Source of the DNA: Bispira polyomma
Lineage: Eukaryota
Assembly (NCBI GenBank): GCA_965649765.1
Contig: OZ287751.1
Location: 73,346,001-73,410,000, forward strand
DNA length: 64,000 nucleotides
Direction: 5' to 3'
A program made the position numbers and the translations under genes. The first letter of the stretch is position 1; each line of letters begins with the position of its first letter. This document shows positions 17,974 to 43,779 of the stretch, piece by piece. Below the pieces are notes generated by a model. The model saw only the letters and a list, made by a program, of their open reading frames with translations, did not search any database and was not told where the DNA came from.

Positions 17974-18175
17974 TGTATAACACTACTACTTTAGGGTTCT
18001 GTTAATTCAGTACAACATAAGAGTTTTACAACTTTAAAACCTTAGTTTACACCCAACCTTTATTTTCTTGTTTATTCTCTTACTACCAATCAGATCCAAG
18101 CTCAACCACCCATGACTCCTCGTTTCCATCTTTATAGCATTATTAATTCGATATTTGAACGAGCAACATCCATTT
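17974..18175 (+). repeat. Repeat A1 of decayed Ngaro
   Basis: Diverged direct repeat of 24805-25008. Confidence 0.85.
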
Positions 18176-18250
18176 CAATTATTGGCAATGTATATGGAAC
18201 TTTTATGCGTTTTATTTTAGTTTGTTTTTAATTTACATTTATACAACCAA

Positions 18251-18288
<38 letters not shown>

Positions 18289-18575
18289 GTTACATCATGA
18301 GATGATGAAGGCGAAGAAGATGGGCAAGGCGAAGAAGACACCATTGACGAAAGTGACCAAGCCAAGGACAAAGAGAGCCGCGAAAATCTCAACGGCCAAG
18401 GGCCAGCAGGTATCTGACATTATTGTTTCAAAACTATAAGCCCAGCTAGCAGCTTTATCCACTCGGACAACCGACTTTTCTCCAGATTTTCTTTCTAGTC
18501 TAGTAGACAAACCCCCAAAATTAACTGAAGTGTGAAATTTAGTAAGAACACGTTTCTTTCCAGAAATCATATCTT

Positions 18576-21335
18576 TAGAGGGTCTAGTTAGATAATTTGA
18601 CGGGTGCCACTCTGGCATTGTTGAGCAATTTTTTTTTATTCACCGAAATTCAAGATGGCCACCATACAGATCCTTTAATTATCATTAAATTGTTATTTCT
18701 TTGTCAACTTTTAGGTGTAATATATAATTTTCATCAGAAATGTACACTCTTATACATCCCTGAAACATTTCCAGAGATACTAGGGAATTCAAGTTGACTA
18801 CCATACTACAAAACCCAGCTAAAAATCACCATGACATTGTCATTTTTTGCAAAGTGTTAATTGTAAAGGCTGCTTTGCACATAAACATTTTCAGAAATTT
18901 TTTTTATTTATTTACTTCAATTCAATTTTTGTGTGCTTGTAAGAAATCATCTAAAATATGTTTCAAATTACTGTTATAAATCCTACAGTACAAGAAGAAA
19001 TGTTTCAATTGTATCATCTGCCAAGTGTCCTGACTGCAATTCAGAATAATCCTGGAAGAATTTTGAATTCTATCAAACTTTATTATATCTTTTCACAGAA
19101 ATTGTGATGAAGAAACAGAAACTTCTGTTAAATACAAAAGCAACAAACGTAAACAACGAGTTTCATTGATAAAAAAGCTTAAAACCTATTTTGGTGATAC
19201 GTTAATAGTAATGAAAATCAATGGATGTGCAAGTCTACTATGTTTGAGAGATCAAGTGCCAAATAATTTTAAGATTATATCTGAAAATGACAAACACTAT
19301 ATTGGAGATGTTCTCAAAATTGTCTCAAATGAAGTGAAGGAAGTACAAAAGCCTCAACAATATGACATTAATATGCTCACTCTTAGTAACACAATAGAAT
19401 CTACCAACAGTACTCTTCTGCATCTTATTAGTGATTTAGGTTCACCAGGCTCTGCTACCAGGAAATCACTTTGTATTTTGCAATCAATACAAAGTTTGGA
19501 GAGTGGCACATTGAATCAAATCACACTTGGCCTTGCTATCAAACTACATCACCAATTTGGGTTAAGGAAAGACACTTTATTTGCTAGTGGTTTCATTAAT
19601 TCTTATGATGAGGTCCTGAGATTTAAGAAATCAGCAGCTAAGATGACTGCCCAGGACACAAGTGTTCACAAGGAATTCTTGCACTGACATTCTGTTAAGT
19701 GCCTGATTTGACAACTTTGATTTAAATGTTTACACCCCAAATGGCACCAGATAATCTCATTGCATGGCAAGAGCGTATAATCAACCATCATAGAATGTAT
19801 TTTCTGCCTTGTACATAGTTTATAAATTTTCTTTAAGGCTTAAAAGGGTTTTAAATATATAACCTAATGTAATGACTTTTAGGCAGGGTTATCCATTGGT
19901 TAGGTCTTGAGTTTCATTTGGGCAAGAACATAGCGAAAAAATTACATCTGCACTTCAATCAGATTTATCTTGGCTGTTAACACTGTTAACACTGTTGTAA
20001 AGTAAATCCCAGATACCAGAATGGTCTGATTTTATGGCATCAGTGGTTAAAAACAAACACACTCTAGTCCTGCAACAAAATATCTGGTTGGGCCATTAAT
20101 AGATTCTCCACCATCACACCCTGACACAGTTATAACCACTTTATTGTACATTGAGGATTTTATGAAACAACTAAACAAAATCCACATTTGTGCAGATGTG
20201 CAAATCTACAAAAGTGATCAAATGGTCAAACTCCAGTAGATGGCAACAATATAGTTGTACATCGTGGCGAGATGCACACTATTTCGTCTTTCATAGGCTA
20301 CATTCGTACCCTGATGGCAAGCAATGGTCTGGAAAAGATTTTGAAAGAGATTTTAGAAAAAAACATACAAAGGTGTCACAAACATATTATTGGAAGTCTT
20401 TGAATGGTTGTTTAAGCCCTTCTAGAACCATTTGTAGATTATGGCAACATAGGCCTGGACTAGATGGAAGAAGTCTTTTTAAGTGCAAGACCCTCACGAA
20501 CTGGCTGTTTATGGGTGGACTGTCCAATAGATCCAGTTATTATTATTCTCCTTTTATCAGAGTAGAGAGAGAAGGTGACTGGTTGCTACACTTGTACAGC
20601 TTGAAAAGAATGTTGCAATACTTTGTTGCTGCTCCTCATTGGACCTATGCACGATATATCCAGTGGTATCTTTTGGAAATGTCTGTTCTTCGTCAAGGTA
20701 TAATAGAGGAATTTCTGTGTGTGTCGCCATAAAAAAGGTGTGGAATTCTTTGTTTGTGGATCTATTTGGTGAGCAAACATACATTAGATATGAGAAAGGT
20801 AACAGTGGTCTTGTTGGAAACAGTCTTAAACATCTTATCATCTTTGCAATACGTTTTCTCTGGTGTATGATAAAATGTATGAGGAGTCCCCTTGAAGGAT
20901 CCAACCCAGAAACCCACAACGATGAAGGTATATGGGGAAAGCTGAAGACTAGATATTTAAGACAGAAGTAAAATCATAAAATCATTGCAGCAGTTAAGAA
21001 ATGCAAAAAATCCACTGTCAACTAAAGAACAAGATCCGCTTATAAATGTTGTGACAGGCCGTGTGGCCCCAGTGATAATAAATGTGGACAATGCACTTGC
21101 AATTGGTAAATCATTGACAGCTTAGTTCTACCCTCCCGTGAGGATTCTATTCACCTTTAGGAGAAAGGGTAACAATGATGGAAGTAGTAAGCAAAAATAG
21201 TTTGAAGGTTGGGGCAGGAAAAACTTACGACATGGAAAAGCTCTATGAAAGACTATTGGTAATTTCACAAAAAGAGACATAAACTAACAAGCCCTACTTA
21301 AGTAGGAACTTTCTCCTGTGCCTTCATCTTTGATT
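18576..21335 (+). mobile_element. Academ-like DNA transposon, 3'-truncated and decayed, inserted in the Ngaro gag region
   Basis: Left end TAG...ataatttgacgggtgcc...caagatggccacc; motifs GLAIKLHHQFG, SYDEVLRFKKS, DNFD, PPSHPDTV, EREGDWLLHL..YF..HWTYARY, DLFGEQT; superfamily assigned from recalled family motifs. Confidence 0.7.
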
Positions 21336-24300
21336 TATTTTCCTCGCTATCCACCAATGTAGAAGCGGCTTATGCCCAGGCCACACCTTCACAGGGCACT
21401 TTATATGTTAACATAGATACTATATTTCCTTACACCACGGGCTAACAAGCAGTAGACAGGGATCCCGCTTATGCTAGGGTTACACCTTCACATTTCCCCA
21501 CTCTAACAGGGTCAGCTACCAACTTCTGTCGGGGGCCAAATCGGGATCCAAGAACTTTGAGATTCTAGCTGTCCTGAGATGTTTGGAAATGTCAAACGCT
21601 GAGTTAACCAAATGAATAGACAGGGTAGAGACAACGCAGACACAACTGGCCCCCACCAAGTCACATGTTACCACCAGCCCCTGTAGGAGGTGCTCTTGTG
21701 GCAAGTACGAGTTTGCTTGCACAACTTCCTACCCAACAAGACTTCGCGAAAGACGGCGTGGAACCTCAACTGGACACACTTCGGGCGATGCCATCAATAC
21801 AGGCAGTGATAGCCAAGCAGCTGGTCGGCTTCAAGATAAAACACCAGCTGAGCAAAAGTCTGGCCATTACAGCAGTTCAGACATTACCACAGTTGACCAA
21901 AAACTGCGATGGCTCAACGAGGGCTGGGTAGGGGCGAATGCTAGGCGGAAACCAACTTTGCCCCAGTGGGCTGCCAGACAGTTTAACAACGCCCTTCTTA
22001 TCACAGACCCTGCATTGATGAAACGTATGACACAGCAAGTTGTTTGCACACTTACGGGTGCAGCTGCCTTCCCCTGGCCGATGGTTCGCACAGCCTAGGG
22101 CCACAGTATGCAGGCAGCCGAAGAGGGGCGACTGACGTGGGACAACAACGCATAATTGGCTTTGAATAGGTATAGCACATCTCAGATGGCTTTAAAAGGC
22201 AATAACAGTAATAATTTCAGGAATGACTTGACTAGGGGGAAACAGAATTTAAGAAGATTTCCAAGTTATATAAGATACAGAGATAGATAGATTTGCAGGT
22301 TATATAATAATGAAAAATGTTCTTACAAAGCTGATCATGCCAACTATAGGCATATTTGTTAGCACTGTTCAAAAACCTTGGGTAAAGATGCAGTGCATCT
22401 GGAATTCAAATGTTTTGAGTCCAATTCAAATAGAAATACAGATCAACAAATAAATAGTCGCTAGGGACGATACCGTTTGCCAATCAGTGGAATAGAAGTT
22501 TATAAAAATAAGCACAATATTGATAAAACCAATTTGGGAAATAAAAATGAATGATATCATTTGAAACATTTTGTGATAGAAAATATAAGCCCAAAAATAA
22601 CATTGCCAACAATGTGCACATACAGGTTCTTTATAATATGTCATGTGTCCATAATTATAATGTAAAAAGTCAATTAATGTGAACAATACTGTTAACAATG
22701 ACTATATGTACTTGTTAAAAAATGTTTTAGAGGCAAATAAAAATACCTTGACTAATGTTTCTAGGTTTTCAGCCGGTTGCAAACAATTTTGACCTCACCA
22801 CTAGTGAAAACACTCCTGATGGGGACAGTGTACTCTGGCAGAGACTGCATAAACAGACCAATGAGTCTGTTAGGGTAAAGGTTTCAGTTAAAAACTGCTA
22901 TGAAATTTAAGATTATGGAGGGATACAGGCCCCTGTGACCTATATCAGTGATGAAAACAAGGGGAAATTTAGAAACGGATTCTACTGTCTCTGCCATTGT
23001 GTCACTAATAACTGTATGGTATATTCACCCACTGTGATAACATCTCAAGGAAATCTGCAGATCCTAGATATATATTATACAGAAATCTGTGCTGAAAATC
23101 TAATTGCGGAAAAATCTATTATTGCAACAATGATCTGCAGAGTTCCACTCAATATGATTGCAATTATACATCATATATGAGAATGTGGTTGATAATCTTA
23201 TCACTCAGACACAGATAGCAGAGAACAGGTTAGTAAAAGTGACTTAAATACAACCAGTGCAAGCTGCAAACAGGAAAAGGTTAGTGATGGAGACTTACCA
23301 ATCACAGATAAGTATAAAGACGTTAGTCTTCTCCAAACATTCTGTCATTGCAGATATCCATGATCATAAGGGCTTTACCAACATTAGTATTATTGACATA
23401 AATAATCCAGACAAAACTACTGGTTTTATAACACTTTCCTCCCTAAGATTTGAATTTATGGGTCCAGAAAAGCAACCTGTCAACATATACTCAGTAGATA
23501 AAATGATTCAAATAGGCAATTTAGTTAGTGACACTGGTCTTTCCAACTTCACAAATTTTAATAATGTAAAAATAAAAAACAATTTTTCTGCTTTACAATA
23601 CACTGAAGCAGTTGGTCAATATCTGGACAAAGAAGAAAAAATGGAGCCAAGCTCGGCCCAGTCAAAGCCATACACTCTTCACAGCTTCACCGTTCACCAC
23701 TATTAACCCATCCGAAAGAGGTTGATAAAAGTTGAGTAATATTGAATCTCTCTTATCCTGAGGGAAATTCTCTAAATGATAATGTCAACAAAACCTCATT
23801 CAACTTCAAACTAAAATTTCCCACTATTGACAATATTGCACATGCAATTCATTATACTCAGGAACCGATTTTATTCAAAATTGACATTTCAAAGGCATTT
23901 TGTAACCTCAGAGTCGATCTGGGCGAAGCAATAAAACTTAGGATATCTTGGGACAAATTGTATCTTGATCCGGGGATCCCATTCGGCTGGGTTCATGGCA
24001 GTGCTACCTTTCAGAGAAGCTTGGACGCAGTTGCTTACCTTATGAATAAGTCAGAGTTCGACTTATACTGTTATATCAGTTTGCCTTACACCTAAACATA
24101 AGGCTCAGCAGGGCTTTAAGATTTTGAATTACTGGACAGACTGGGCTTTCCAATGAACAGTGAGAAACTCACTCCTCTCACACACAATATTACATGTTTG
24201 GGCATTGGCATAGATGTAAAAAAGGCATAATTTCTATAACCAAAGAAAAAAATAACCTAAATTTGGAATTTGTGTTTTGAAATTTACAATAAAAAATTCA

Positions 24301-24615
24301 TTTTTAAAAACAAATTTAAATCTCTTTTTGTACTGCAGCTAATGCACCACTATTTGCATCAACTACCCCTCCTTTTCACCCAATTGTGGACTCCCATGTG
24401 AGGGCAGCTCTTCAAAAAATTCTAGAACATATAGGAATAAAATACAATCCCATCGCTTTCACACATTCAGGCGCTTATGTTTCCCTCCGAAATATAGTCC
24501 CATGACTTGTGGAAATCCTCAGCTGTATGGACCTACTTACAACAAAGTTCAGAAACAGCTTCTGCAGTACCCCTCACATTTGCCTCCACAATTCCTTATT
24601 TCTCTTAGTTGTGCT

Positions 24616-24804
24616 TGGGTGTCAAAATTTCAAAAAGTTTTTACTATTATCTTACATTTTATCTGTACTTGTATACATATTAATTTGTACAAAAACATTC
24701 TCAAACATGATTTTACTGACTTATATAATCAAACGCTTTTTAAGTTACTTCCTGAAACTTCATGACTTAACCTCACCTTAACTTTACATCTTACAAATTA
24801 GACT
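24616..24804 (+). repeat. Repeat B1 of decayed Ngaro
   Basis: Starts just after the YR stop; diverged copy at 26941-27145. Confidence 0.85.
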
Positions 24805-25008
24805 GTGTATAACACAACTACTATAAGGACCTGTTAATTCAGTACAACATAAGATTTTTACAATCTTAAAACCTTAGGTTACACCTAACCTTTATTTTCT
24901 TGTTTATTCTCTTACTTCGAATTAGATTTAGGCTCAAACACACACGACTCCTCGGTTCCATCATTATAGCATTATTAATTCAATATTTGAACAAGCAACA
25001 TTCATTTT
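24805..25008 (+). repeat. Repeat A2 of decayed Ngaro
   Basis: Abuts B1; matches 17974-18175. Confidence 0.85.
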
Positions 25009-25492
25009 AACCCACCACCTCCACTTACCACAGCAAAGGTTAAAGACTTTATCAATTTTGGGCGATAGGCGGTAGAGTTGGCTCGGGGTCGTGTCCACCC
25101 TTGAACTGTGTGATAGTTGGTTCCTACTCTCATATACCTGCCCTTGGCGTGGCTTCCAAGGGAATTTGGAGCTCTGCTGGTAGGAACTAATTTGTTAGGT
25201 GCCTTGGTGCCATAGGTTCCACATTTAAATCCTCCCAGGCCAATTCGTGTGCTCTGACGCCTGATAAGTGAATAGTTTAAATGATTATAGTTAGGTTAAC
25301 TGATAGTTGTAAGAACAAGGTTATGTACAGGAATAAATATTCTCAAAGACTTACCATAGGTATCCTTGTCTTTAATTTGCTGAAAACAAGGTCAGGTAAC
25401 CCATCACATGACCTCAGGAAATTAGAGAAATTAGAGTAGAGTTAGAAATGTAGGCACCCGAAAAACTCCATCATAAGGCATATTTCCATCTT

Positions 25493-26540
25493 AAGGCATT
25501 GTATCCCTCTTAAGTTGCCACCTACAGTAAGTAGAGTAAAATAGACTGACTTCAAGGAAAGCTGGGCACCCCTGAGCTGTCGCCAATATCAGAAGCTTGC
25601 TTCATGTGTGTTAATTATTTTGCTAAGCAGAGAGCTTAAGCGTATAATATCTGAAATGTATGATAAGGCATTATATACCCCTCAGTTACTACCTACAGTA
25701 GGTAGAGTAAAATAGACTGACTTCAAGGGAAGCTGGGCACCTCTCAGCTGTCGCCAATATCAGAAGCTTTCTTCATGTGTGTTAAATATTCTGCTAATGG
25801 CCTGGTCACACCTACACTTGCTAACATTCCACAACGTAGAAAAGCAATATAACTAAAAACGTGGTAGTTTTGTGTCAAAGTGATGTCATTTTCATAAAGT
25901 TGGAGTCGATTGTGATGTTTTGTGATGATGTTGGTGATTATGTAAATCTACTTACTGCTGCATTCAGCTGCAATCTGCTATTTAGTGAAATGTTCCAGAA
26001 CGAATACAGACAAGTAGAGACGATATCACTACTTACTGCTACTTATCACTATGTACTGCTACATTATGCTGCTTATACAGACGAGTGGAGACATCCTTGT
26101 GAAATGGAGAGCTCTGCCACAATTATTTTAAACAGTTTAAGTAATCGCGGCAGTGGACATAACAAAGACACTTCCTGAACGATATCATCTGTTAAGCAAC
26201 GCCAGGGAACAAACGCACCAGGGATTCTCACTTTTGCACTACCTTCTACTACGTTTATACTAGGTTTCAAAACAACTGAAAACATCACACACACGTAGCT
26301 CCAGCACATGTAGGTGTGACCAGGCTTTAAGCAGAGAGCTTAAGTGTAAGATATGTGATATGTATAATAAGGCATTAGATACCCCTCCATTACCTACCAC
26401 AGTAGGTAGAGTAAAATAGACTTATTTCAAGGGAAGCTGGGCACCCCTGAGCTATCGCAAATATCAGAAGCTTGCTTTATGTATGGTAATTTTTTTTGCT
26501 AAGCAGAGAACTTTAGCATATAATATGTAAAATGTATGAT
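25493..26540 (+). repeat. Tandem array, 3 x ~172 bp, unit 2 interrupted by a MITE
   Basis: Units start aaggcatt at 25493, 25665 and 26369. Confidence 0.92.
25798..26327. mobile_element. PIF/Harbinger-type MITE (530 bp) with TAA target-site duplication
   Basis: TIRs gcctggtcacacctaca / tgtaggtgtgaccaggc; TAA at 25795-7 and 26328-30; empty site gcTAAgcag present in sister tandem units. Confidence 0.93.
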
Positions 26541-26940
26541 AATTGTGTGATTCAAACGTTTGGGAAAGCCCATAATGTTGAAAATATAAAATAAATGGTC
26601 ATTTACGGCATATTTATTGCCCAGAACAGGGGTAATCATGTTATTTCTAAATACAGGTTTATGGCCTTGTGCTACATTAGAAACTAGCTTGCTAGTATGT
26701 CAGGGGAAAGATAGCTCTGGGCAAATAGTTGTCTGATGAATGCGTAACACACCCTATGCTTATACATTACGTGAAATCGATTCATAATTCAAGGCTAGTC
26801 TCTTATTTACTAGGTTTTAGTTAGTATGATTGTTAACTTTGTTATATGTTTTACTGTAACTTTTTAACTGTGTTTGTAACTGTTATGATTGATATTGGAC
26901 ACTTGGATATTGTGTTCCTTGTACGTTATTGGATAATGTA

Positions 26941-27145
26941 TGGGTGTCAAAATTTAAAAAAATATTTACTATTATCCTACCTTTATCTGTACTTGTGTAT
27001 ACATACTCACTAATTTGTACACAATAAAACCTCAAATATGGTTATACTTTTACTTATAAAACTTCATATCAAACGCTATTATAAGTTACTTCCTGAAACT
27101 TCATGACTTAACTCCACCTTAACTTTACATCTTAGCAATTGGACT
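26941..27145 (+). repeat. Repeat B2 of decayed Ngaro (3' terminus)
   Basis: Matches 24616-24804. Confidence 0.85.
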
Positions 27146-27379
27146 TGAAGTTTAACTCTCGAGATTTGTCAAACCGTCTTGTTATAAACAACCTATTTAT
27201 ATATATTAAAAAAATTAGACTTTCAACTGGCTTTAAGGTTAAATCTCTTTAACAAAACTTACAGGATATATACTTCTCCTGTTAATTATACAACACACCA
27301 GCTACCTTAAAGAAAGTCATTTTTTTTTGTCTGCATTGTTACTTGCAAACATATGTAATTATAATACAAATAACTGCAG

Positions 27380-27473
27380 ATGGCCGAGAACCCAGACCAG
27401 TCAGATGCTAAAACACAACACATAAGACAAGGTTACCTAAAATGGGAACAATATTTCATGGGAGTAGCACTAC
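27380..27473 (+). CDS. DCTD: dCMP deaminase coding exon 1, 5' part
   Basis: cag|ATG then MAENPDQSDAKTQHIRQGYLKWEQYFMGVAL. Confidence 0.9.
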
Positions 27474-27704
27474 AGTCCCCATAATTGGAGGGATATAATT
27501 GAAATCAAAGGTCAAGATTGTTGAAGGTCAAGTTGCGATCAATAAGGTCATGATATGTTGTAAATATGAGAAGAAGGTAGTAACAGATTCAGTTTGAGTA
27601 TTTATTTTTTACATGTTAGTATATATATATATTTACATATGACCTTAACATAGTATAAGAAAAGCTTAAAAATGTTTAAAATAAAAGTAAAATTTTTAGC
27701 CCCA
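27474..27704 (-). repeat. Ngaro repeat B2
   Basis: Same as 28631-28859 except one TA unit. Confidence 0.95.
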
Positions 27705-28413
27705 CAATGAAGCTATAATCATCACCAACTTTAAATAAAGGCCACATATAAAAAAAAAAAAAAAAAAAAAAGTTACGTCTAAAATACTACAATAACATGT
27801 GCTGATATTATATCATATTGCATTGCACATAAATTAGCCTTTATCATATTAACTTTGCATTATATATACCATCCACATAATATTATAGTGGTTTACAAAG
27901 GGGCTTGCCCATACAAATTGAACATGACAAGAATATCTAGTACTTCACATATATCGAGTTACATATTGGTACATTATCCTTCATAGCTCATTCAAGGCAA
28001 CAGCCAGTGTTAGTTACAATGATCGTTGAAGATCTTTCTTTTCATACCCATATAACCTACTTTATATTTATCCTTACAGACACCCTTAAATGTCTCATAA
28101 CTTGGCGTAGTCCGTCCTGTCTTTTAAGCCATAAAAAGGGGGCTTAAACTCCGTCAAATCAAAGTCTGTACGACCATTTGTCCAGTTTAGTCATCCATAA
28201 CGTCTGTCTTGACACATAATCGCGTCTCTACCATGTGTACATCATAAATGCCCACCGAGAGGCAGCTAAATAAACATAAATAATTTCTAGTCATCTCAAC
28301 CTTATAATCGCGTCTTTACATGTGTTCATTCTGAATGCACACAGAAAGGCCGACGGCAATGGAAATAAGTCACATTACCTATACCTTATGCTGAGGTGAG
28401 GGGAGGAGGTGGG

Positions 28414-28630
28414 TTTTTAAAATGAACTTGTTGTTCCTTCAAATTCGGAATTTAATATGGTGGCTTTATGTTTTTGCGGGAAGAAGGTAGCATTCGAGCC
28501 CTCTCATTGGCTAGTGTAGAGATGGACAGATGGCTTAATAAAAGTCGTTCTAACTTGATGGAATTTAAGGTAGCAGAGTAAAAGTGTGTGGACTGACGTA
28601 GCAGTCCCCTAAAGGTGTCCTGCTTACCAC
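28414..28630 (-). repeat. Ngaro repeat A2
   Basis: 217 bp; 2 differences seen from 34377-34593. Confidence 0.95.
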
Positions 28631-28859
28631 AGTCCCCATAATTGGAGGGATATAATTGAAATCAAAGGTCAAGATTGTTGAAGGTCAAGTTGCGATCAAT
28701 AAGGTCATGATATGTTGTAAATATGAGAAGAAGGTAGTAACAGATTCAGTTTGAGTATTTATTTTTTACATGTTAGTATATATATATTTACATATGACCT
28801 TAACATAGTATAAGAAAAGCTTAAAAATGTTTAAAATAAAAGTAAAATTTTTAGCCCCA
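28631..28859 (-). repeat. Ngaro repeat B1
   Basis: Follows the YR stop and abuts A2. Confidence 0.95.
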
Positions 28860-28866
28860 AGCCAAA

Positions 28867-29817
28867 CTAGAAAACAGAAGGGATGGTGGCCGCGAAAGTC
28901 AAAGGGACCACAGAAGCTGCTTGGGAGGTTTTTTGTAGATAGGTCCACACGGCAGAAGATCTCCAAAGACCATGGGACATGATGTTTTGAAGGGATACAT
29001 TATTGTTAAAAGCGAAAGTGGCTCCCGACCTTCTGAAAGTGTGAAATCCATGGGAAGTATATTGCAGTCCAATGTGCGAAAGAACTGTTTGCAGTGCTGT
29101 TCTAACGTGTGAGTCCACTATTGTGTGAAAAGGTGCCTTGCCCTGTGCAAATAGAGGTTGGCTATTGATCAATTTCCTAGATTGGAGGAGAGCCATTAAA
29201 GCCCTTACTGGACAAAGTAATTTGTTCTGAAGGGCTGGAATTTGAATAATATGGGTATCCGTTCTATTTTGTAAGTTTTTCGCCCACTTTAATATGATGT
29301 GGGCTCCCGGATAACCGAAAACCACATCTTGTCTGAGGAAATGTCTGGATGGATCAAAGCTTGCCCTAGAATGAGGAGCTATATTTGATAGCCTTAAAAA
29401 CCCGAAAAAAGCCACCAAGAATATTGCCCTAAATAAAATTGGGTCATCCAAAATCTCACATGTAGCTGAAATCTGCTGTAATTGCTGAATAGTAAAAATC
29501 CCCTTAGGTTTGGGTTTAAATGTAGAATTGTGAGATAAACTCCTGAGGAAAAGAGACACTGAATTGTGCGTGAAAGGAGAGAGGTCCCAAGAATATTTAT
29601 TCGCAATAAATCTAAGAGCAGCCATGTAATTTTTTATGGCTCCAGGAGATAAAAGATTTTGTGCCAAATACTCCAAAAAGGCAATGACAGCATGTATAGT
29701 AATGTGTTGGATACCTGAGAACTGTAAGAAAGCTAGAAAAGTTTTAAATTGTCCTTCATATGCTGAATTAGACTTTGGTCTTAAAGCAGTATTAATCCTG
29801 TCCCATGCTGTGTCCAT
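28867..29817 (-). CDS. Tyrosine recombinase (intact)
   Basis: Catalytic set FFGFLRLSN (R), KWAKN (K), HTFRR (HxxR), HGLW, WTYL (Y). Confidence 0.95.
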   Translation of the reverse strand: MDTAWDRINTALRPKSNSAYEGQFKTFLAFLQFSGIQHITIHAVIAFLEYLAQNLLSPGAIKNYMAALRFIANKYSWDLSPFTHNSVSLFLRSLSHNSTFKPKPKGIFTIQQLQQISATCEILDDPILFRAIFLVAFFGFLRLSNIAPHSRASFDPSRHFLRQDVVFGYPGAHIILKWAKNLQNRTDTHIIQIPALQNKLLCPVRALMALLQSRKLINSQPLFAQGKAPFHTIVDSHVRTALQTVLSHIGLQYTSHGFHTFRRSGATFAFNNNVSLQNIMSHGLWRSSAVWTYLQKTSQAASVVPLTFAATIPSVF

Positions 29818-29849
29818 AAGCTGCTGTGTAATTGGCGTAGAACCTGAAA

Positions 29850-32648
29850 TTAAATTGTCAAGTTTAAGTTAAAATATTCAAGTGGGACTGACCTCCAAAC
29901 ATTATTATCTCTAATTGATTGCAATAAATTATTGTCAATGCCTCTTACTGAATATATTCTAGATAATGCATCAGCAATTATGTTGTTTTTCCCAGGAATG
30001 TGTTTAATCTCAAGCGTAATATCATATGCTGCTGTAATTAGCCATATGTTTCTTAAGCAAAGTGCTAAGAATTTGTCTCTAGTTTTCTGTGATTCAACTA
30101 CCAGAACCACAGCCATATTGTCGCAGTTGATGCTCAATTTCTGGTGTTTCCACTGTTCGGCCCAAATTTTTAATGCGATGATGATATTCAACATTTCCAA
30201 ATGAACAATTGTCAATTTGCCGTTGAAAATATCATGGAACGGGGTGGCATATACTTCATTATTCCATACTCCCCCGAATCCGGTGAGACAAGCATCCAAA
30301 TGCAACTCGTTTGCGTGTGAGATAATATCTTTTTGTATATATGTTATCCCATTGAATTTTTCCAAAAATGTTATAAACCATTGGATGTCCGCTTGCATTT
30401 CATTGCTGACCTTAAATCTTTTGTTCATGCTATTATTTCTAAAAGCAGCTAATAATCTGTTAATGAATATCCTGGCAGGGACGACGCATTTATGAATATA
30501 CAGCAATTGGCCCAGGAGCGATTGAAATTTTTTTCTAGAAATATATTTTTTACTATGCACTTCGAGGCATGTTTTGTGAACTTCCTGTAATTTCTCAAGC
30601 TGAATACTAATGGTGCCTGCTGTAATGTCAAAGTCAATGCCGAGACACGTAAGTTTCTTAGTGGGAGGAGTAAGCTTATCCGCGTTAAGAGGTAAACCTA
30701 GTTTCATCATGATATCATATAGCATATCAAAACCCGCTTGAGCATGTTCTTTTGAAGCAACGCAAACGTAATCGTCTATGTATCCGAATACTTGGTAACC
30801 ATGGTTACCCATAAATGAGGTTATTGCGTCGGTACATCGCTGGAAGGCCGTGCTGCCGTGGACCCAGCCAAACGCAATTGCCGGATCAACATAGTATACA
30901 TTGTCCCAAAATATTCCTAGTTTCATGGCGTCGACTGGGTCAACACGTAAGTTCCGAAACGCGCGTGCCACGTCAATTTTAAACAGTACCGGATCATCAG
31001 TATTACGAATTGCTTCTGTAATGTTATCTATGTTTGGAAACTTTAATACAAACGCCACTCCATCAAAATTGTCCCTGTCAACATTGTCATTAACCGAGGC
31101 CCCTTTTGGGTAAGAAAGGTTCAATATGACTCGACGCTTTGTAATATCTTTTGGCCTAGTAAGAAGTGGTGAACAATTATATTGAGGGTCCGGAATGTCC
31201 CTAGTAGGCCCCAACATGGCCCCCAATGATGTTTCCTTTTCCAAGTATTGCCTTACTGCATCAGGGTACTGAGAAGCTGAGAAATGATTAGTTACCTTAT
31301 GATTTCTTATACCCTCTGGTTGTGTCAAAGACAGAGGGAATCCAAACTTAATGTATTGAATTAATAACTGGTCAGGATATTCCTGTAATAAGTCCTCCCA
31401 TGCTTTGATATGTAAACCTGAGTTGATAGGTATCCTAGCCTGTCTATAATTGGGAAGCCCTGTTTCCTTAATGATTTCAGCAACCCTTGAAATTTCTGAA
31501 ATATCCTTAATGGTAACTGCCTGCCTGTCAGGACCTACAAACTCAAAATTTGTGGGGGACAGAGCTATGAACCCTACAACCTTATTGGGATTGTTAATGT
31601 CAGTAGTTTTCCTGATAACAGGTAGATTGGCCATTTTAAGCATGTCCCTAAAATGTTCTGAAGAAGTCGGATTTGTGATGACATCACAAAGCGGACGACT
31701 CTTACCTGTTTCGTTTTTCCCGGTCATGTTGCCGGTCTCCTTGTTCCTTGTTATACATTCATCATTATTTACATTATCTGTATTATTATCAGTCCCTTTA
31801 CAGTCATCAATCATGCAGTCAATAATTTGTTCCATATATGTAGTATAGTCAATGTTATATCTGTCCAAACATGTGATATCTCTGTCATAGAACAATTTAG
31901 TGTCCTTCGCTTGTTGTTTGTCTTTTGCAGAAACATAATTGTATTCAATACCATACTGGACGTCTTGACATTCCTGATATTGTAACAGTGCAGAAAACGA
32001 ATTTAAAATTGTTAGTAAACCAGAAGGTTTAAATTCGATTTGGTCATAATAATGAACACCAGCAGCCTGATCCCAGATTTGACAGTAGAAATTTTTAAAG
32101 AAGCCGTTATGACTGTGAATATACACTATGGGAGAAGAAAATTCCCCCTTGTTATTCATGTAATTCCAATTTGTGATGTCTATTCTTACTTCACATGTTT
32201 TACTGCTGTTGTTCATATATACCTGGTTATATTTTAGATCTTTAGCGCCATCAGATCTGACGTACTGACCAGTGTTCTTATGTTCTGCTTGTGACCCATC
32301 TGTGCTGGGTACATTATGGCCCCTACCTGTAGAACCTTGTACAAGAACGTTATGACTCACACTATTTCCCTTATGGTCTGCTTGTGACACATCTGTGTTG
32401 TGTACATTATAGCCCATATCTGGAAAACCTTGAACAAGAACATTATGACTTACATTATTTCCATTAATGACATTTATCACTCTGTAATAATTTGACATAT
32501 CATTCCCAGATTGGGTAACAACTGTATCAATTTTAGCATTATTTACTGTCTCAATATGTTTGTAATTGTTCTTATCGACAATTAATTGCTTATCATTCTC
32601 TATTACCTTATTAGCAATTAAATGACTGTTCTTTCTGTCCTTCTTCAT
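29850..32648 (-). CDS. Reverse transcriptase + RNase H with a ~350-aa N-terminal extension (intact, 932 aa)
   Basis: KIDVARAFRN, FGWVHGS, YIDD; RNase H motifs HLDAC, HLEM, NCDN, IADALSR. Confidence 0.95.
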   Translation of the reverse strand: MKKDRKNSHLIANKVIENDKQLIVDKNNYKHIETVNNAKIDTVVTQSGNDMSNYYRVINVINGNNVSHNVLVQGFPDMGYNVHNTDVSQADHKGNSVSHNVLVQGSTGRGHNVPSTDGSQAEHKNTGQYVRSDGAKDLKYNQVYMNNSSKTCEVRIDITNWNYMNNKGEFSSPIVYIHSHNGFFKNFYCQIWDQAAGVHYYDQIEFKPSGLLTILNSFSALLQYQECQDVQYGIEYNYVSAKDKQQAKDTKLFYDRDITCLDRYNIDYTTYMEQIIDCMIDDCKGTDNNTDNVNNDECITRNKETGNMTGKNETGKSRPLCDVITNPTSSEHFRDMLKMANLPVIRKTTDINNPNKVVGFIALSPTNFEFVGPDRQAVTIKDISEISRVAEIIKETGLPNYRQARIPINSGLHIKAWEDLLQEYPDQLLIQYIKFGFPLSLTQPEGIRNHKVTNHFSASQYPDAVRQYLEKETSLGAMLGPTRDIPDPQYNCSPLLTRPKDITKRRVILNLSYPKGASVNDNVDRDNFDGVAFVLKFPNIDNITEAIRNTDDPVLFKIDVARAFRNLRVDPVDAMKLGIFWDNVYYVDPAIAFGWVHGSTAFQRCTDAITSFMGNHGYQVFGYIDDYVCVASKEHAQAGFDMLYDIMMKLGLPLNADKLTPPTKKLTCLGIDFDITAGTISIQLEKLQEVHKTCLEVHSKKYISRKKFQSLLGQLLYIHKCVVPARIFINRLLAAFRNNSMNKRFKVSNEMQADIQWFITFLEKFNGITYIQKDIISHANELHLDACLTGFGGVWNNEVYATPFHDIFNGKLTIVHLEMLNIIIALKIWAEQWKHQKLSINCDNMAVVLVVESQKTRDKFLALCLRNIWLITAAYDITLEIKHIPGKNNIIADALSRIYSVRGIDNNLLQSIRDNNVWRSVPLEYFNLNLTI

Positions 32649-32693
32649 ACACTCAGTACTTATGGCATGTGACTCTGCTAGTTGAAAATTTAC

Positions 32694-34283
32694 CTATTTA
32701 TTTGACACAGAATTTTCTGACTGTTTGTTGGCATTAGCCCTGTAGCATTTGAATTCCGGGTGACTTTGTTCTTTACCTAGCACCTTATTGCAATACCAGC
32801 AGTTATGCCTATAATTACCGTGGTCTGATTTATGTGAACATTTACCAGTGTTAAACATTTTGCAGATCACCTTGGCCTCGTTCGAACTCCCTCCTTGCGT
32901 CGTGCGGTTACTGTCATTGTGTGTACTGTTAGCCATCGCGAGTTGAGAGGCATTAAGCCTGTTCAATGCCCATTGCGTATTTTCCTGCCAGGACAGCCGA
33001 CCCTCCTCCACCTCTTGCATGTTGAGGGCCCAGGCTGTCCTGACCACTGGCCATGGTAATGAAGCGGCATCCCGCATAGCATATACGAGCTGAAGCATCA
33101 TGCTCCTCATAAGCGCGTTGTCTTGAACTTGCAGAGCATTGGAGATTTGCCCCTGAGAGTTCGTCGTAGGTCGGACGTTTTCGGGCGGTACCCCCGACCC
33201 ATCCCTCATTCGGCCACCGAAATTGAGCATCCCCCATCGTGACGTCGGTACTGTTAAACCTACCGGACTTTGTTCTCGAGTTCACCTTACCTTGGAGCAA
33301 GTGTTTGTGGGCCAATGCTTCGTATTCGGCCAGTTGGCCGAGACAGCAGATTGGACACTGGGTATGGACCTGAGAACATCAACACTGGGCACTATTCCGT
33401 CCTTCTGATAATCGTGAGCATTAATCGGCTGTTGCTGGATCTGCTGAGCCTGATGCAAGCCAATCCCTGTCTGCAGTGTCAGCGCGTTGTGAGCCGGTGT
33501 CTGCACAGTGTGAGGGGTAGTTAAAGACGGTTGTAGCTGTTGCTGGATCATGGGGTTGTATATACCCGCTACACCCGAAGGCGTGTGCGCCGTTAAATGT
33601 GTTGTCGGTTGTGTGTGAGCAGCACTTAACCCCAGACCACTGTTAGGCGGAGCAAGGGAATCTGACGCTGTATTCCGTAGTGGCGGTTGGGTGTGAACAG
33701 CACCTAATCCCATCCCATTAGTAAGCATAGCCGTGTGCTGGTTAGCAAGCGGATTCGGCAGCGTGGATTGTAGTGACGGTTGAGTGTGAGCAGCACCTAA
33801 CCCCATTCCGTTCGTCGACATCGCTGTGTGTCTGTTCATAAGATGGTTTGGCAACGTGGATTGTAGTAACGGTTGAGTGTGGACAGCACTTAACCCGTTA
33901 GGCGGGATCACTGTGTGCTGGCTTTCCAGCGCTAAGCTATCTGAGGAGTTGCTTATGGGCCCGTTATTTGCCGTTCTAGCCTCCACTCTTTCTATACGCT
34001 GGGACAGTGATATGTTGGAGGACTCGAGTCGTCTTAATATGGAGAGCATCTCGTTCGAGCCCTGCTCAGAGGTAGTAGGCGGGATCGTGTCAAAACAAGT
34101 GTTACCTGCCAAAGACTGTGTACCCTGTCCAGTATTTGTAGCAGGATTTGCTGAAGTAGCATTTAAAGAAGTCGATACCTGTTCTACTGTGTCCTTTGTC
34201 ACCTTCAGTACTTTGGTAGCTCGAGTCATGGGCTTCTTTTGTTTAACAATACTGTGTAAGGCACCCTTTGTATTTTTCCCCAT
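32694..34283 (-). pseudogene. Ngaro gag-like ORF1, broken by 2 frameshifts (~33335 and ~33155)
   Basis: Three overlapping ORFs reconstruct one protein: coiled coil, 31-aa repeats, QGK..KSGRF..RWPNEG..YDELS, C-terminal Cys/His finger. Confidence 0.88.
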
Positions 34284-34376
34284 GATTCACTATATCAATT
34301 TAGCACTAACTGTGTGACACAATATGTAAAAATAAAATACAATTCGATGTAAATAAAGTAAAATAAAAGTTTGTTT

Positions 34377-34593
34377 TTTTTAAAATGAACTTGTTGTTCC
34401 TTCAAATTCGGAATTTAATATGGTGGCTTTATGTTTTTGCGGGAAGAAGGTAGCATTCGAGCCCTCTCATTGGCTAGTGTAGGGATGGACAGATGGCTTA
34501 GTAAAAGTCGTTCTAACTTGATGGAATTTAAGGTAGCAGAGTAAAAGTGTGTGGACTGACGTAGCAGTCCCCTAAAGGTGTCCTGCTTACCAC
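34377..34593 (-). repeat. Ngaro repeat A1 (5' terminus)
   Basis: Matches A2. Confidence 0.95.
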
Positions 34594-34628
34594 TTTCTGC
34601 TAAACGGAGCAAGGACCCAAAAACGCAG
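34594..34628 (+). CDS. DCTD: dCMP deaminase coding exon 1, 3' part
   Basis: (L)SAKRSKDPKTQ|gtaac. Confidence 0.92.
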
Positions 34629-35414
34629 GTAACATATATATTACCCCATTAGACTGAGAGGAAAAATATACATTTTCGCTGTTTCTGACAAGTAATTATA
34701 TTGTTGGAAAAAAATGAATCATGTGACTTGAAATAATGGAATCAATAATTATAAAAAAGAAAGCTAAAATGTAAGTGGTTTTGTGCTATTTTGGCATTTT
34801 TAATAATAGACAAGCAATTCATTAAGCTTATCATTAAGATTAATATTAGTACACCTACATGTGACAAGCTAAAATGTATAAAGTTTTTTGGACAAGCAAT
34901 TCAGTAAAATTAATACTAGTAAACATACATATCTTACATTTTAATTAGTAGTACAATCATTTAGATCTTATTACAATTACTTCTTCTTGTTTTTTGGTGC
35001 TATGTTTTGTATGGCCTGGTTCTCAATCATTATTTCCCTCTTAAGGATTAAACAATAAATATGGGAAAATCGGTTGTTGAGCAGCTCGAATGTTAAATTT
35101 TCTTAAAATATTCACATGAATATTTTGCAAAAAACAAGCATACGGTTAACTGTACAAAAATATTTTAAGGTTTTAAACTTTGTGCTGCCTCAACCCCTGC
35201 TCTATAAATTATTGAACATTATGGTCGTGTTCAAGTATAATATGCATTTATAGCTGCCCCAGATAAATCAACTAAATCGTTCAAATATCATTTTTGGAGC
35301 TGCAGCGAACTGCAGGACTATCTAAATGTAACTTTCACACGTTTCATATGTTTATTACACCTTTACCATTTGGTACTTCTTTTCTTACCCTTTTTGTGTG
35401 TCTTCTGTTTTCAG

Positions 35415-35544
35415 GTTGGGGCATGTATTGTAAATGAAGATCGTATCATAGTGAGCACTGGTTACAACGGCATGCCAAACGGGTTGAGTGATGACGACAT
35501 GCCATGGGGAAAAGGAGATGGTCTAAAAAATAAACACCTCTATG
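35415..35544 (+). CDS. DCTD: dCMP deaminase coding exon 2
   Basis: tttcag|[23 protein letters not shown]...KHLY G|gtatga. Confidence 0.95.
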
Positions 35545-36719
35545 GTATGAATATGGTTAGGGTATTTTTAGGGCGAAAAATTACCCTGCATAGGTAGTTT
35601 TTAATGGACTGGAGCTTTTAAATCTGTGACTTGTTTACTCCAAACAAAATAGAGTTGCAGTAGTCGCGGCGGCTGCTCACAAGGGTGTTAGCAACAGTTA
35701 TAGCAGTGTCCAGTGATAGTTGGTTTCGGATTCTTTTGATGCCACGGATGTGGTAATATCAGAAGCCAGACGTTGGCAATATGAGTGCCAAACAAAAAGG
35801 CCTAGTCGAAAGTGACACCAAGGTTTTTGGCATTTTCGGAAGGTAGTTTATCTTTTCCCAGAAGGGAAATGGGGAACAATCATTTTAGGAATTCACTGTC
35901 TTTTTTTGTTTCCAATAAGAATGAATTCATTTTTGTTAGGATTTAATTTCAATTTGGAGTAGTTCATCAATGCCTAAAGAGAAGATAGACAGTCTGCGAG
36001 TAGATCAATATTTTTATTTGCATTTTTACAGTTAACAGTTACCAGTTAATTGAAAGGGCTAAAAGATGCAACTATAGGGATACCACGAAAGAGCACATTA
36101 GGAAACAAGTAGTTGATAAATGAAACTCTATTATTATGCAGAGAAAATTTGACAACAGTCAAATAAAAGCAATAAAGTCGCAAAATGAAGCAAACTGTGT
36201 TACCAGAAGTAGGAAGTATATCTAACTTTAACATAAAAATACCCAGCTCAAAGCTCAAATAAGGGGTTATTCCACCTCTAAAGTAAATAAAAGTTGATAC
36301 AGATGTGATGTGGAACAAGTGGTCGTTTTGGTAAGAATGACAACTACACGGCAAGGGGAAAAGAAATAAATTAATGTCACGAGAAAGGACATTTTGTATA
36401 TTGTTGTAAAACACAGGTAAGAGGCACACCTACAACCAAAAGGAACTTTGCACATTATGTAGAATGCCAACAGTATGTTATGTAATTAGGCCCACAGTGG
36501 ACTGAGTGGATGAAATTCTGCAAGACATAAACCAAAGTATACCTTTTTTAAAATGTGACATAAAATGGCCTTTTCATAGAGAGATATCACAACATTTGCT
36601 ACAGAGCAAGACCTATACAGCTACAAGCAGCTTATGTTCGGAATTAGTTTACTGTCAGAGTTTAAACAAAACAAAAAACAATCACAGAAGTACTTCGTGG
36701 TTTGAAAGGCATAAAAAAT

Positions 36720-37120
36720 ATTGCAGATAACATTATAGTGCTTGCACCAAATGTTGCTGACTGTCATGAAACTTAAGAGAGATTAATGGCAAAAGGGATT
36801 ACTGTGAACTCAGAAAAATGTGTCTTTTGTATGACAAAATTGAAGTTTTTAGGACATGTATTGTTAAAACATGGCATTGGTCCAATAGAGGAATATGTAA
36901 ATGCTATCAGGAATACCAGTCCACCTAAACATTTGCCAGTAGGCAGGAGTTTTCTAGGAAATTTTAGTGCCAAGTATTTACCATATCTAGAAACAATCCC
37001 AGGTCCACTGAGAAGGCTAACCAGTGTTTAATTTACATGGTGAATCGAGCAGCAGAAGTTGTTTATTAACTCAGTTACTTGGTCAGTCATAATCACTGGC
37101 ATATTTTAACCAGAAGACAA
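36720..37120 (+). mobile_element. Gypsy RT relic in DCTD intron 2
   Basis: IADNII..GITVNSEKCVF..KFLGHVL..RSFLG..PLRRLT. Confidence 0.8.
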
Positions 37121-37200
37121 AGTTTTGCATAATTTTAGTTTCTTAGTTTATCAATACCATACTTTCCTTTTACAAACTACAGGAATGTTTCATATTTCAG

Positions 37201-37414
37201 TGTGTCATGCAGAGCTCAATGCTGTTTTGAACAAAAACAGTTCTGGCATCAAAAAGTGCACAATCTATGTGACACTATTTCCTTGCAATGAATGTGCTAA
37301 ACTTCTCATCCAGGGAGGTATTAAAGAAATAGTGTATCTTTCTGACAAGCACAGTGGGCGTGACATGACCAACGCCTCTAAGTTGATGCTTAACAAAGCA
37401 GGGATAAAGTTCAA
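37201..37414 (+). CDS. DCTD: dCMP deaminase coding exon 3 (Zn-binding HAE and PCxxC)
   Basis: tttcag|VCHAELNAVLN...TLFPCNECAK...AGIKF AA|gtattt. Confidence 0.95.
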
Positions 37415-37854
37415 GTATTTATGTCAACACTACTTTTTGTACCAGTTTCTAGTGTTGTTTTTAAATTTGATTTGTAAAAGCAGAAAATAATTTTTATTAA
37501 CAAATTTTATCAAAGTTGAGATTTACATATGTGTATTTAGGCGTATTGTGTAATCAATTAAAAGTTATACAAGTAATAAATTTTTCAAACAAACATTGGA
37601 AATGAAAACTAGTTTTAATGAAAAAGTTAATTGGCTAGCAACAATTAAATTCCAGTAAAATATTCAAAAATGAAAATTAAACATATTGCAAAGAATGACA
37701 TTTTTTCTCAAGTTTGACTGTCAACCTTTTGTGTTGAATATTTGAAGTTTATATTTTATGTTATGTTAAGGAATATTTGACAGTTAAATTATAATTTGTG
37801 GTATATAAATTTAATGCCTATTTAATTAATCAAATTTCTGTTATTACTTTACAG

Positions 37855-37909
37855 AGAGTATGCTGCAGAAAGGAAAAAAGTAATACTTACTTACCCTAAG
37901 GACGATTAG
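37855..37909 (+). CDS. DCTD: dCMP deaminase last coding exon
   Basis: tttacag|A then EYAAERKKVILTYPKDD*; phase compatible with exon 3. Confidence 0.8.
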
Positions 37910-39006: not shown

Positions 39007-39156
39007 TGTAATGTTGTAACGGGTTAGGCACTCGGTTATTAGTATGCACCATACCGGAAGTGATTAGACGTTCTGGAACGTATCATCCAAGGTGTTAAAT
39101 AAATAAAGGGATTCTATCTGCAATCATCTGCTGTGTTATTATTAACAAAGAACACA
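39007..39156 (+). repeat. Gypsy 5' LTR
   Basis: 4 differences seen from the 3' LTR. Confidence 0.95.
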
Positions 39157-39260
39157 CTGGCCACGAGGATGGGCACAAAACATTGAATGTTACATATTTG
39201 ACATTAGTTTCAAAGGATAATTAACACAGATAAACATTCATTATAAACTACTCATTTACA

Positions 39261-42200: not shown

Positions 42201-42950
42201 AATTGATAAAAGGGTAGAAGAATTAGTGAAAAATTGTTTCTCATACCAGATCTCAACAGAACGACCTCAAAGAGAACCCCTACAAATGTTTCCACTCCCA
42301 AAAGGGCTGTGGGCCGAATTGAGCATGGATTTTGGATATATTTTAGGTGTATACTTATTTGTTGTGATGGATGATTATAGTAGATACCCATTTGTAGAAG
42401 TCATTAACTCAACGTCCGCAAAATCTATTTAACCTAAACTGGATAACATTCTTTCAATGATGGGGATACCACAACAAATGTGGGAAAGGTGGTAGTTCCT
42501 TACTGTGGGCTGCTGGTTTCTCTGCAGAACCTTAAACGACTGTATGCAGTGTTTCCTCCAGCGTTTCCAACTACCCGTCCCAATATAACCTACTAAAAGG
42601 TACTAGAGTGGACGTGAAATATCCAAATTCAAATTCAAATGATCACTGCCGAAAGAGGGATAAAGAAGGTAACTCGAAACTCATCATTCTTCAAAGCATC
42701 TCCACGTCCACCTACTACTAACACTGAGAGTGATCCAGAAAGTGATGATGAACCCAAGTCAAATGAGAGTAATGTTAACCCATGTGCAGCACCTGATCCC
42801 ATGGCTGAATCACCACAAGACCTGAGTTCGACCCACGATAGATTACCACATAGCAGAAGTAAACCTAAAAATCAGCCACGCCCAACAGTCTGTGTTTTTC
42901 CGCAGCGTGACCGAAGACTCCCTGCGAAAAATGTGCAATACAAAATGTAG
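39261..42950 (+). pseudogene. Gypsy gag-pol pseudogene
   Basis: LLHYGG, CCHC knuckles, ADSGATVN, FSKIDL, LDASAVG, YSQIEREAL, NPADYLSR, AHISHQG, DDYSRYP; many stops, frameshifts and deletions. Confidence 0.92.
42479..42640 (+). mobile_element. 5'-truncated SINE inside the Gypsy integrase
   Basis: Core tgtgggaaaggtggtagtt...gtttcctcc..aatataacc..gacgtgaaa with a (caaatt)n tail. Confidence 0.7.
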
Positions 42951-43629: not shown

Positions 43630-43779
43630 TGTAATGTTGTAACGGGTTAGGCACTCGGTTATTAGTATGCACCATATCGGAAGTGATTAGACGTTCTGGA
43701 ATGTATCATCCAAGGTGTTAAATAAATAAAGGGATTCTATCTGCAATCATCTGCTGTGTTATTATTAACAAACACCACA
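43630..43779 (+). repeat. Gypsy 3' LTR
   Basis: Direct repeat of 39007-39156, followed by ACAGT. Confidence 0.95.

What the first reader, a model, noticed from the sequence alone, without database searches (positions are those of the whole stretch)
27380..37909. dCMP deaminase gene knocked out by a recent antisense Ngaro insertion in coding exon 1
Seen: removing 27474-34593 restores ...GTA GCA CTA C|TT TCT GCT AAA (VALLSAKRSKDP) exactly. With the insert, the frame reads L-Q-S-P-stop after 34 aa. The other exons, splice sites and catalytic HAE/PCxxC motifs are intact, and the element's repeats are about 99% identical. Established: DCTD supplies dUMP for thymidylate synthesis and balances dCTP/dTTP pools. 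Inference: a young, probably polymorphic null allele, or a redundant paralog just starting to decay. Annotation from the ORF track alone would miss both halves of exon 1.
Basis: partly seen in the sequence, partly recalled or inferred. Interest (0 to 1): 0.72.

Follow-up and report, generated by a model that had tools for sequence, protein, structure and literature searches.

The report
Retrotransposon breaks spare dCMP deaminase copy
A young 7-kb jumping gene sits inside the first coding exon of an extra copy of a DNA-building-block enzyme gene and likely destroys it, but the animal's main copy is intact elsewhere, so this is likely an ordinary early step in the death of a duplicate gene.

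Summary
A 7,120-bp Ngaro-type retrotransposon (split direct repeats, gag, RT/RNaseH, tyrosine recombinase, no methyltransferase, no target duplication) lies antisense in the first coding exon of a dCMP deaminase gene and gives a stop after 34 codons. Without it the gene reads as an open 175-aa frame with HAE, PCNEC and GYNG.

The gene is not the housekeeping DCTD. The assembly holds five DCTD-like loci, and a complete canonical copy sits on C1. The window gene, a decayed sister and an H-to-C variant form a separate divergent clade (97/95).

The window gene and its sister show past purifying selection (omega 0.29). The frame also stayed open after an older Ngaro element (repeats 11-13% diverged) landed 234 bp upstream of the ATG. 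It was probably functional until this insertion, which is about 0.1-0.35% substitutions old.

Contigs from three public runs of one study carry junction sequence and show no empty allele. They cannot settle polymorphism. Expression is untested.

Verdict: real and precise, but a known kind of event: transposon-triggered pseudogenisation of a dispensable paralog.

The parts
27380..27473 (+). dCMP deaminase paralog, first coding exon, 5' half (ATG at 27380)
   Evidence: 72% DNA identity to exon 1 and upstream flank of the C1 sister paralog
27474..34593 (-). young full-length Ngaro-type tyrosine-recombinase retrotransposon, 7,120 bp (27473-34592 by the family's own ends); no target-site duplication
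27482..27484 (+). premature TAA read from element sequence after 34 codons
27474..27704 (-). split direct repeat B2 (element 3' end)
27734..27771 (+). AATAAA followed by a 22-A run on the host gene's sense strand; a candidate premature polyadenylation site (inferred); also seen, with shorter A-runs, in the 3 closest copies
28414..28630 (-). internal repeat A2
28631..28859 (-). internal repeat B1 (B1|A2 is the circle-junction copy, downstream of YR)
28867..29868 (-). tyrosine recombinase ORF, 333 aa, open
   Evidence: Phage_int_SAM_1 E 1e-5; Phage_integrase E 0.011
29850..32693 (-). RT/RNaseH ORF, 947 aa stop to stop, open; no methyltransferase hit
   Evidence: RVT_1 E 1.4e-7; RVT_3 E 9e-6
32694..34286 (-). 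gag-position ORF (no Pfam hit), broken in this copy by two private deletions into 334 + 195 aa pieces
34377..34593 (-). split direct repeat A1 (element 5' end)
34594..34628 (+). first coding exon, 3' half (encodes the SAKRSKDP stretch), intact GT donor
35415..35544 (+). coding exon 2 (GYNG allosteric motif)
37201..37414 (+). coding exon 3 (HAE and PCNEC zinc motifs)
   Evidence: PF00383 46.8 bits, cut-off 25
37855..37909 (+). coding exon 4 with stop
17967..27145 (+). older, decayed Ngaro-type element (A1 17967-18178, B1|A2 24616-25010, B2 26941-27145; gag/RT/YR remnants 21740-24596, nested inserts) ending 234 bp upstream of the ATG
   Evidence: the homologous flanks are ~116 bp apart in the sister paralog

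Best explanation
A young Ngaro-type retrotransposon sits in the first coding exon of a divergent duplicate of dCMP deaminase and stops its frame after 34 codons, which likely made a null allele of a gene that was likely still working but likely dispensable, because a complete canonical DCTD exists on another chromosome. Shown: the structure, the stop, the paralog set and the junction geometry. Inferred: the element integrated as a circle through its tyrosine recombinase (no target duplication, 0-3 bp overlap with the circle junction). Inferred: transcripts are cut short at the sense-strand AATAAA/A-run or degraded through the early stop, and no plausible splice restores the frame. Inferred: the gene arose by duplication from the C1 cluster, stayed under purifying selection through an older Ngaro insertion upstream, and is now at the first step of pseudogenisation. 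Whether the allele is fixed or still segregating is open.
For: Exact empty-site reading, confirmed by the uninterrupted paralog. Exon-3 and exon-2 searches each give the same five loci. C1:79.79 Mb copy P2 is complete from its ATG exon, with HAE/PCNEC/GYNG, and has a processed pseudogene on C4. Window gene + P3 + P4 form a clade (97/95) apart from P2; window vs P2 is 54% aa identity. Window vs P3: dN 0.13, dS 0.49; GY94 omega 0.29, LRT 20.3 against omega=1. Old element's repeats differ by 11-13%; in my simulation a dead 528-nt frame stays open for 6.5% divergence in 0.5-8% of 1,500 runs per setting, against 76-87% for 0.35%. 14 other places match the internal repeat junction at 97-100% among 40 scored of 523 candidates. 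The 9 in-frame splice combinations all use donors scoring -2.5 to -9.9, against 0.1 to 3.4 for the real donors. Contigs of X1/X2 carry both junctions with 0 differences.
Against: No expression or enzyme data. Omega is pairwise and includes P3's branch; only 15 changes could be polarised to the window branch (7 synonymous, 8 non-synonymous), with 31 ambiguous. Intron 3 divergence (JC 0.20) is far below dS (0.49), so constraint measured against the intron is weaker (dN/intron ~0.65). The old element 234 bp upstream may have affected expression. The simulation and splice scores use my assumed parameters. Junction contigs hold only 28 and 30 element letters, under the tool's 31-letter bridging rule, and probably come from the assembly's source. 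Redundancy with P2 is assumed, not tested.
Confidence: 0.78

Rival explanations
1. The paralog was already silent, for example after the older Ngaro element separated it from its promoter or 5' exon, and the young insertion is a passenger in a dead gene.
For: A 9.2-kb old element sits 234 bp upstream of the ATG. The locus lies alone among transposons: 1 of 50 further open frames scanned had a Pfam hit, a THAP domain. Sister P3 is already dead. dN relative to intron divergence is ~0.65.
Against: The frame, all splice sites and all three motifs are intact. Survival of an open frame since the old insertion is 0.5-8% under neutrality in my simulation. Omega 0.29.
Confidence: 0.13
2. The allele is leaky: the element is spliced out through cryptic sites and a near-normal protein is still made.
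For: In-frame donor-acceptor pairs exist; one (27464 to 34578) would give a net 2-residue insertion.
Against: Their donors score -2.5 to -9.9 on a simple matrix. Most products lose the first helix or the RSKD stretch. Eleven AATAAA hexamers lie on the gene's sense strand inside the element.
Confidence: 0.04
3. The insertion removes the animal's housekeeping dCMP deaminase and unbalances dNTP pools.
For: The window gene has all DCTD motifs named in PMC12088426.
Against: P2 is complete, closer to canonical DCTDs, and has a processed pseudogene, which implies germline expression. PMC12088426 (passages) reports fertile Dctd-knockout mice in the authors' hands.
Confidence: 0.03
4. Assembly chimera: the element was mis-joined into the exon.
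For: No listed contig spans the whole 12.3-kb stretch, and the junction contigs fall just under the 31-letter rule.
Against: Unique-flank contigs run into the element at the left junction in 3 of 3 runs and at the right junction in 2 of 3, with 0 differences. The ends match those of 8 other insertion sites, and this copy has its own private changes.
Confidence: 0.02

Closest known systems
Ngaro superfamily of tyrosine-recombinase retrotransposons (Ngaro1_DR type; as described in PMC4157794 and PMC9210276, passages read)
   Same: [quoted passage not shown]
   Different: No extra SGNH-hydrolase ORF as in the Xenopus families (only four ORFs of 150 aa or more). Gag and RT lie in one frame separated by a stop; only RT and YR overlap. 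Placement against reference Ngaro/PAT RTs was not tested.
PAT-like DIRS elements
   Same: Split direct repeats, YR.
   Different: PAT elements encode a methyltransferase domain; none was found even at E<=10, and RT/RH runs straight into YR. PMC4157794 notes one MT-less PAT lineage in C. briggsae, so structure alone is not final.
Human DCTD (PDB 2W4L)
   Same: HxE, PCxxC and GYNG motifs; only PDB match for exon 2 (E 6e-10).
   Different: The window gene is a divergent paralog (54% to the genome's own canonical copy). It has S-T in place of G-I/G-V before GYN, seen in 4 of 121 motif occurrences among fetched relatives. Best database identity for exon 3 among the listed hits is 70-73%.
Transposon-induced pseudogenisation of duplicate genes / birth-and-death gene families (recalled general knowledge)
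   Same: Duplicate with an intact parent, one decayed sister, one processed pseudogene and one freshly interrupted copy.
   Different: The agent is a rare YR element, and two Ngaro insertions of very different age lie within ~330 bp of each other at the same gene start.

Membership tests
Ngaro retrotransposon | Split direct repeats A1-B1-A2-B2, internal pair downstream of YR | tested here: met
   definition from PMC4157794 passages
Ngaro retrotransposon | gag, RT/RNaseH and tyrosine recombinase ORFs on one strand | tested here: met
   gag is assigned by position only (no Pfam hit) and is broken in this copy
Ngaro retrotransposon | No methyltransferase domain (separates Ngaro from PAT/DIRS1) | tested here: met
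   no such Pfam hit at E<=0.01 in four ORFs or at E<=10 in RT and YR; RT/RH overlaps the YR frame
Ngaro retrotransposon | Integration without target-site duplication (recalled property of YR elements) | tested here: met
   window plus 8 independent other sites: no duplication, 0-3 bp overlap with the circle junction on the right
Ngaro retrotransposon | RT/YR phylogeny inside the Ngaro clade | not tested
dCMP deaminase (DCTD) family | HxE and PCxxC catalytic motifs, G(Y/W)N(A/G) allosteric motif | tested here: met
   HAE, PCNEC, GYNG; motif definitions from PMC12088426 passages; PF00383 over cut-off
dCMP deaminase (DCTD) family | [quoted passage not shown] | not testable with these tools
   needs an enzyme assay
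Canonical (housekeeping) DCTD ortholog | Being the genome's conserved copy | tested here: not met
   P2 on C1 is complete and canonical; the window gene groups with P3 and P4 (97/95) in a 48-row tree whose deep nodes are weak
Polymorphic insertion allele | An empty-site allele exists in the species | tested here: inconclusive
   no exact empty site in the assembly; no loose end at 34594 in X1/X2, and X3 has no cover there; one study, contigs only

The most novel reading that the evidence does not exclude
The window gene is the last HAE-intact member of a lineage-specific, fast-turning-over DCTD subfamily with a changed allosteric-site neighbourhood (S-T before GYN, echoed in clam and fish DCTD-like duplicates). 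The subfamily has a role apart from housekeeping, such as unregulated or defence-related dCMP/dCTP depletion. The Ngaro allele is a natural, still segregating knockout that would allow this role to be tested in the wild.
Probability: 0.12. Interest if true: 0.62.

Novelty: new member of a known kind. Interest (0 to 1): 0.3.

Why it matters
It is a clean, dateable snapshot of a duplicate gene dying by one event, caused by a rarely documented class of transposon, and it corrects annotation: ORF-based callers would miss both halves of the exon. It shows a recently active Ngaro family acting as an insertional mutagen in this animal. It does not show loss of an essential metabolic enzyme. Interest would rise only if the paralog clade has its own function and the allele segregates.

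Tried and rejected
(1) Expression: the look-up of sequencing runs listed 3 runs, one study, no RNA holder listed; this is no evidence either way.
(2) Empty allele in reads: no joint 27473>34594 among the 15 joints shown (51 more not shown); none in the narrow lay, where X3 has no cover at 34575-34739. X3's contig starts at a GAATC, which I read as a Hi-C enzyme cut (recalled, not on record). Depth was too noisy to tell homozygous from hemizygous.
(3) Orthologs of the paralog in other species: two protein searches with exon 3 gave at most 73% identity (best 120 of 1,870 hits listed) and 70% (53 hits). No close ortholog was found; this is weak evidence.
(4) Programmed read-through in gag: rejected; the internal stop is private to this copy, and 5 of 9 other copies have one 536-aa frame.
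(5) Dating by all 25 private substitutions (0.35%) is rejected as too old: 10 of the 16 classified coding changes are synonymous, so many arose in an unsampled active source. Three changes in the second gag piece were not classified.
(6) Family preference for older Ngaro relics: no Ngaro protein or old-element DNA hit in the short flanks (about 45-1,800 bp) of 8 other sites.
(7) New start codon from the element into exon 1b: an in-frame TGA lies 12 codons upstream (read).
(8) Copy L036 was dropped from the alignment because only 5.9 kb of it aligned in the fetched stretch; L042 and L045 share flanks and count as one site.
(9) IQ-TREE codon runs printed no omega, so a pairwise GY94 fit was used.
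(10) Earlier findings: two look-ups returned nothing.
(11) Paper searches (listings only) showed no title or abstract start on invertebrate DCTD paralogs or on an exonic Ngaro insertion. The library lacks most subscription papers, and no supplements were read.
(12) No structure prediction was run.
Full report
OBSERVATION. The window is G000:C4:73,346,001-73,410,000 of a 1.035-Gb assembly in 75 contigs, an animal judging by the gene and transposon content. An ATG at 27380 opens a dCMP-deaminase-like frame that breaks at 27473 and resumes at 34594. Leaving out 27474-34593 and joining four GT-AG exons gives 528 nt, 175 aa, with HAE, PCNEC and GYNG. With the insert the frame stops after 34 aa. The empty-site reading is not chance: the closest paralog carries the same exon uninterrupted. 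A 20-nt empty-site pattern finds it with one mismatch and finds one unrelated 2-mismatch hit (control 1), with no exact match.

THE INSERT. It is a 7,120-bp minus-strand element. In its own sense it reads A1 (34593-34377), gag-position ORF, RT/RNaseH (947 aa), tyrosine recombinase (333 aa), B1|A2 (28859-28414), a spacer, and B2 (27704-27474). No methyltransferase domain was found. This is the Ngaro layout as defined in PMC4157794 and PMC9210276 (passages); an RT tree with reference elements was not run. The internal repeat junction matches 14 other places at 97-100% among 40 scored of 523 candidates. I fetched 10 of them and aligned 9 (8 independent sites); they differ from the window copy by 0.7-1.9%. 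Three of the nine keep all three frames open, so the family was recently active. No site shows a target duplication. All have a C at the left junction, so the family's ends are 27473-34592, which is equivalent for the empty site. Integration of a circle by the recombinase is inferred from this and from general knowledge of YR elements.

AGE. The repeats differ by 2 substitutions in 446 bp plus a TA slip, about 0.2% per copy. The window copy has 25 private substitutions (0.35%) and two private deletions that break gag. Ten of 16 classified coding changes are synonymous, so part of the 0.35% predates insertion. The insertion is young (about 0.1-0.35%) but not new this generation. No calendar age is given because no mutation rate is known here.

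EFFECT ON THE GENE (inferred). The stop comes before every motif. Eleven AATAAA hexamers lie on the gene's sense strand inside the element, one followed by a 22-A run at 27734-27771. I paired all 23 GT donors in 27383-27799 with the AG acceptors in 34200-34628 and with exon 2. Nine pairs keep the frame, all with donors scoring -2.5 to -9.9 on a simple matrix of assumed frequencies, against 0.1 to 3.4 for the real donors. A null allele is likely; expression was not measurable.

WHICH GENE IS IT. Exon 3 and exon 2 searches each find the same five loci; a PF00383 search added only more distant deaminases. P2 (C1:79.78-79.79 Mb) is complete from an ATG micro-exon with a GT donor through HAE/PCNEC/GYNG. 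P5 (C4:25.98 Mb) is its intronless, frameshifted copy, 93-94% identical in the two central exons. P3, next to P2, is the window gene's sister (76% aa, shared intron sequence) and is dead: 1-bp deletion in exon 3, PCNEC to PSNEC, and a stop in the nearer of two exon-4 copies. P4 (C1:7.85 Mb) has an open frame with CAE and PCVHC; its last exon is my tentative assignment. In a 48-row tree (4 paralogs plus 44 of 120 fetched relatives, chosen by hand) the window gene, P3 and P4 form a clade (97/95) apart from P2; deep nodes are weak. So the hit gene is a divergent paralog, and in this assembly it was the last member of that clade with HAE and PCxxC both canonical.

WAS IT ALIVE. Window vs P3: dN 0.13, dS 0.49; GY94 omega 0.29, LRT 20.3 against neutrality. 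Against this, the estimate is pairwise, polarised changes on the window branch are few (7 synonymous, 8 not; 31 ambiguous), and intron 3 is only 0.20 diverged. A second clock is an older Ngaro element at 17967-27145 (plus strand), ending 234 bp before the ATG and absent from P3. Its repeats are 11-13% apart, its ORFs are decayed, and its best full-length junction matches elsewhere are 71-74%. In a simulation with assumed indel ratios 0.05 and 0.15, a dead frame stays open through 6.5% divergence in 8.2% and 0.5% of 1,500 runs, and through 0.35% in 87% and 76%. The gene therefore probably outlived the old insertion under selection and fell to the young one.

READS. One search listed 3 runs, 2 samples, 1 study, library not on record. 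A contig 27116-27501 runs into the element in 3 of 3 runs, and a contig 34564-35605 runs out of it in 2 of 3, all with 0 differences. They hold 28 and 30 element letters, just under the tool's 31-letter bridging rule, as expected where a contig stops at a repeat. No loose end or joint for an empty allele was listed, but contigs drop rare variants, X3 lacks cover at the right junction, and X1/X2 may be the assembly's source. A chimera is unlikely; polymorphism is undecided.

COMPARISON AND VERDICT. DCTD motifs and regulation are taken from PMC12088426 and PMC12386326 (passages); the first also reports fertile Dctd-knockout mice in the authors' hands, against an earlier consortium report of infertility. 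The window clade has S-T before GYN, found in 4 of 121 motif occurrences among fetched relatives (2 Mya, Scomber-like, Thunnus-like); those do not group with it in the tree, and any functional meaning is untested. Paper searches (listings only) showed nothing on this case. The event is a new instance of a known process, transposon-triggered pseudogenisation of a duplicate. Interest 0.3; the bold reading (a functionally distinct DCTD subfamily with a segregating natural knockout) has probability about 0.12.

Noticed in passing
window 17967-27145 (+): Older decayed Ngaro element ending 234 bp upstream of the same ATG, with nested inserts (about 18200-21300 unidentified; 25450-26550 repeats). Two Ngaro insertions within ~330 bp may mark an accessible gene start.
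   Followed up: yes
G000:C1:7,841,000-7,852,500 (L031-L032): DCTD paralog P4 with an open frame but HAE changed to CAE and PCNEC to PCVHC; it may still bind zinc with three cysteines; activity unknown.
   Followed up: partly
G000:C1:79,795,000-79,814,500 (L027-L029): Decayed sister paralog P3 in tandem with canonical P2, with a duplicated exon-4 region (one copy with a stop, one open).
   Followed up: partly
G000:C4:25,975,300-25,976,600 (L034): Processed pseudogene of canonical DCTD; its tail is longer than P2's, which has a short deletion after the catalytic domain.
   Followed up: partly
window 6080-13131 (+): BEL/Pao LTR element with two long open frames (651 and 1,169 aa) and LTRs 96-99% alike.
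   Followed up: no
window 14020-15656 (-): A third, truncated Ngaro remnant (RNaseH and YR pieces).
   Followed up: no
window 35572-36026: Very high-copy short element in intron 2 (summed contig depth over 1,000 times the flanks), also present at 79% in the P4 locus.
   Followed up: no
window 39007-43779 (+): Gypsy-like LTR element (150-bp repeats 97% alike; RT_RNaseH hit) just downstream of the gene.
   Followed up: no
window 47174-47449 (-): THAP domain fragment (E 4e-5), probably a DNA transposon relic.
   Followed up: no
window 59130-59369: 30-bp tandem array.
   Followed up: no
G000:C10:32.42-32.49 Mb; C2:10.81-11.27 Mb: Clusters of near-identical copies of the young Ngaro family; two on C2 share flanks, so they are segmental duplicates.
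   Followed up: partly
P0009, P0010, P0038, P0070, P0080, P0023, P0037, P0061, P0069: DCTD-like duplicates recur in oyster, clam and several fishes, some with tandem domains or an altered GYN neighbourhood.
   Followed up: partly
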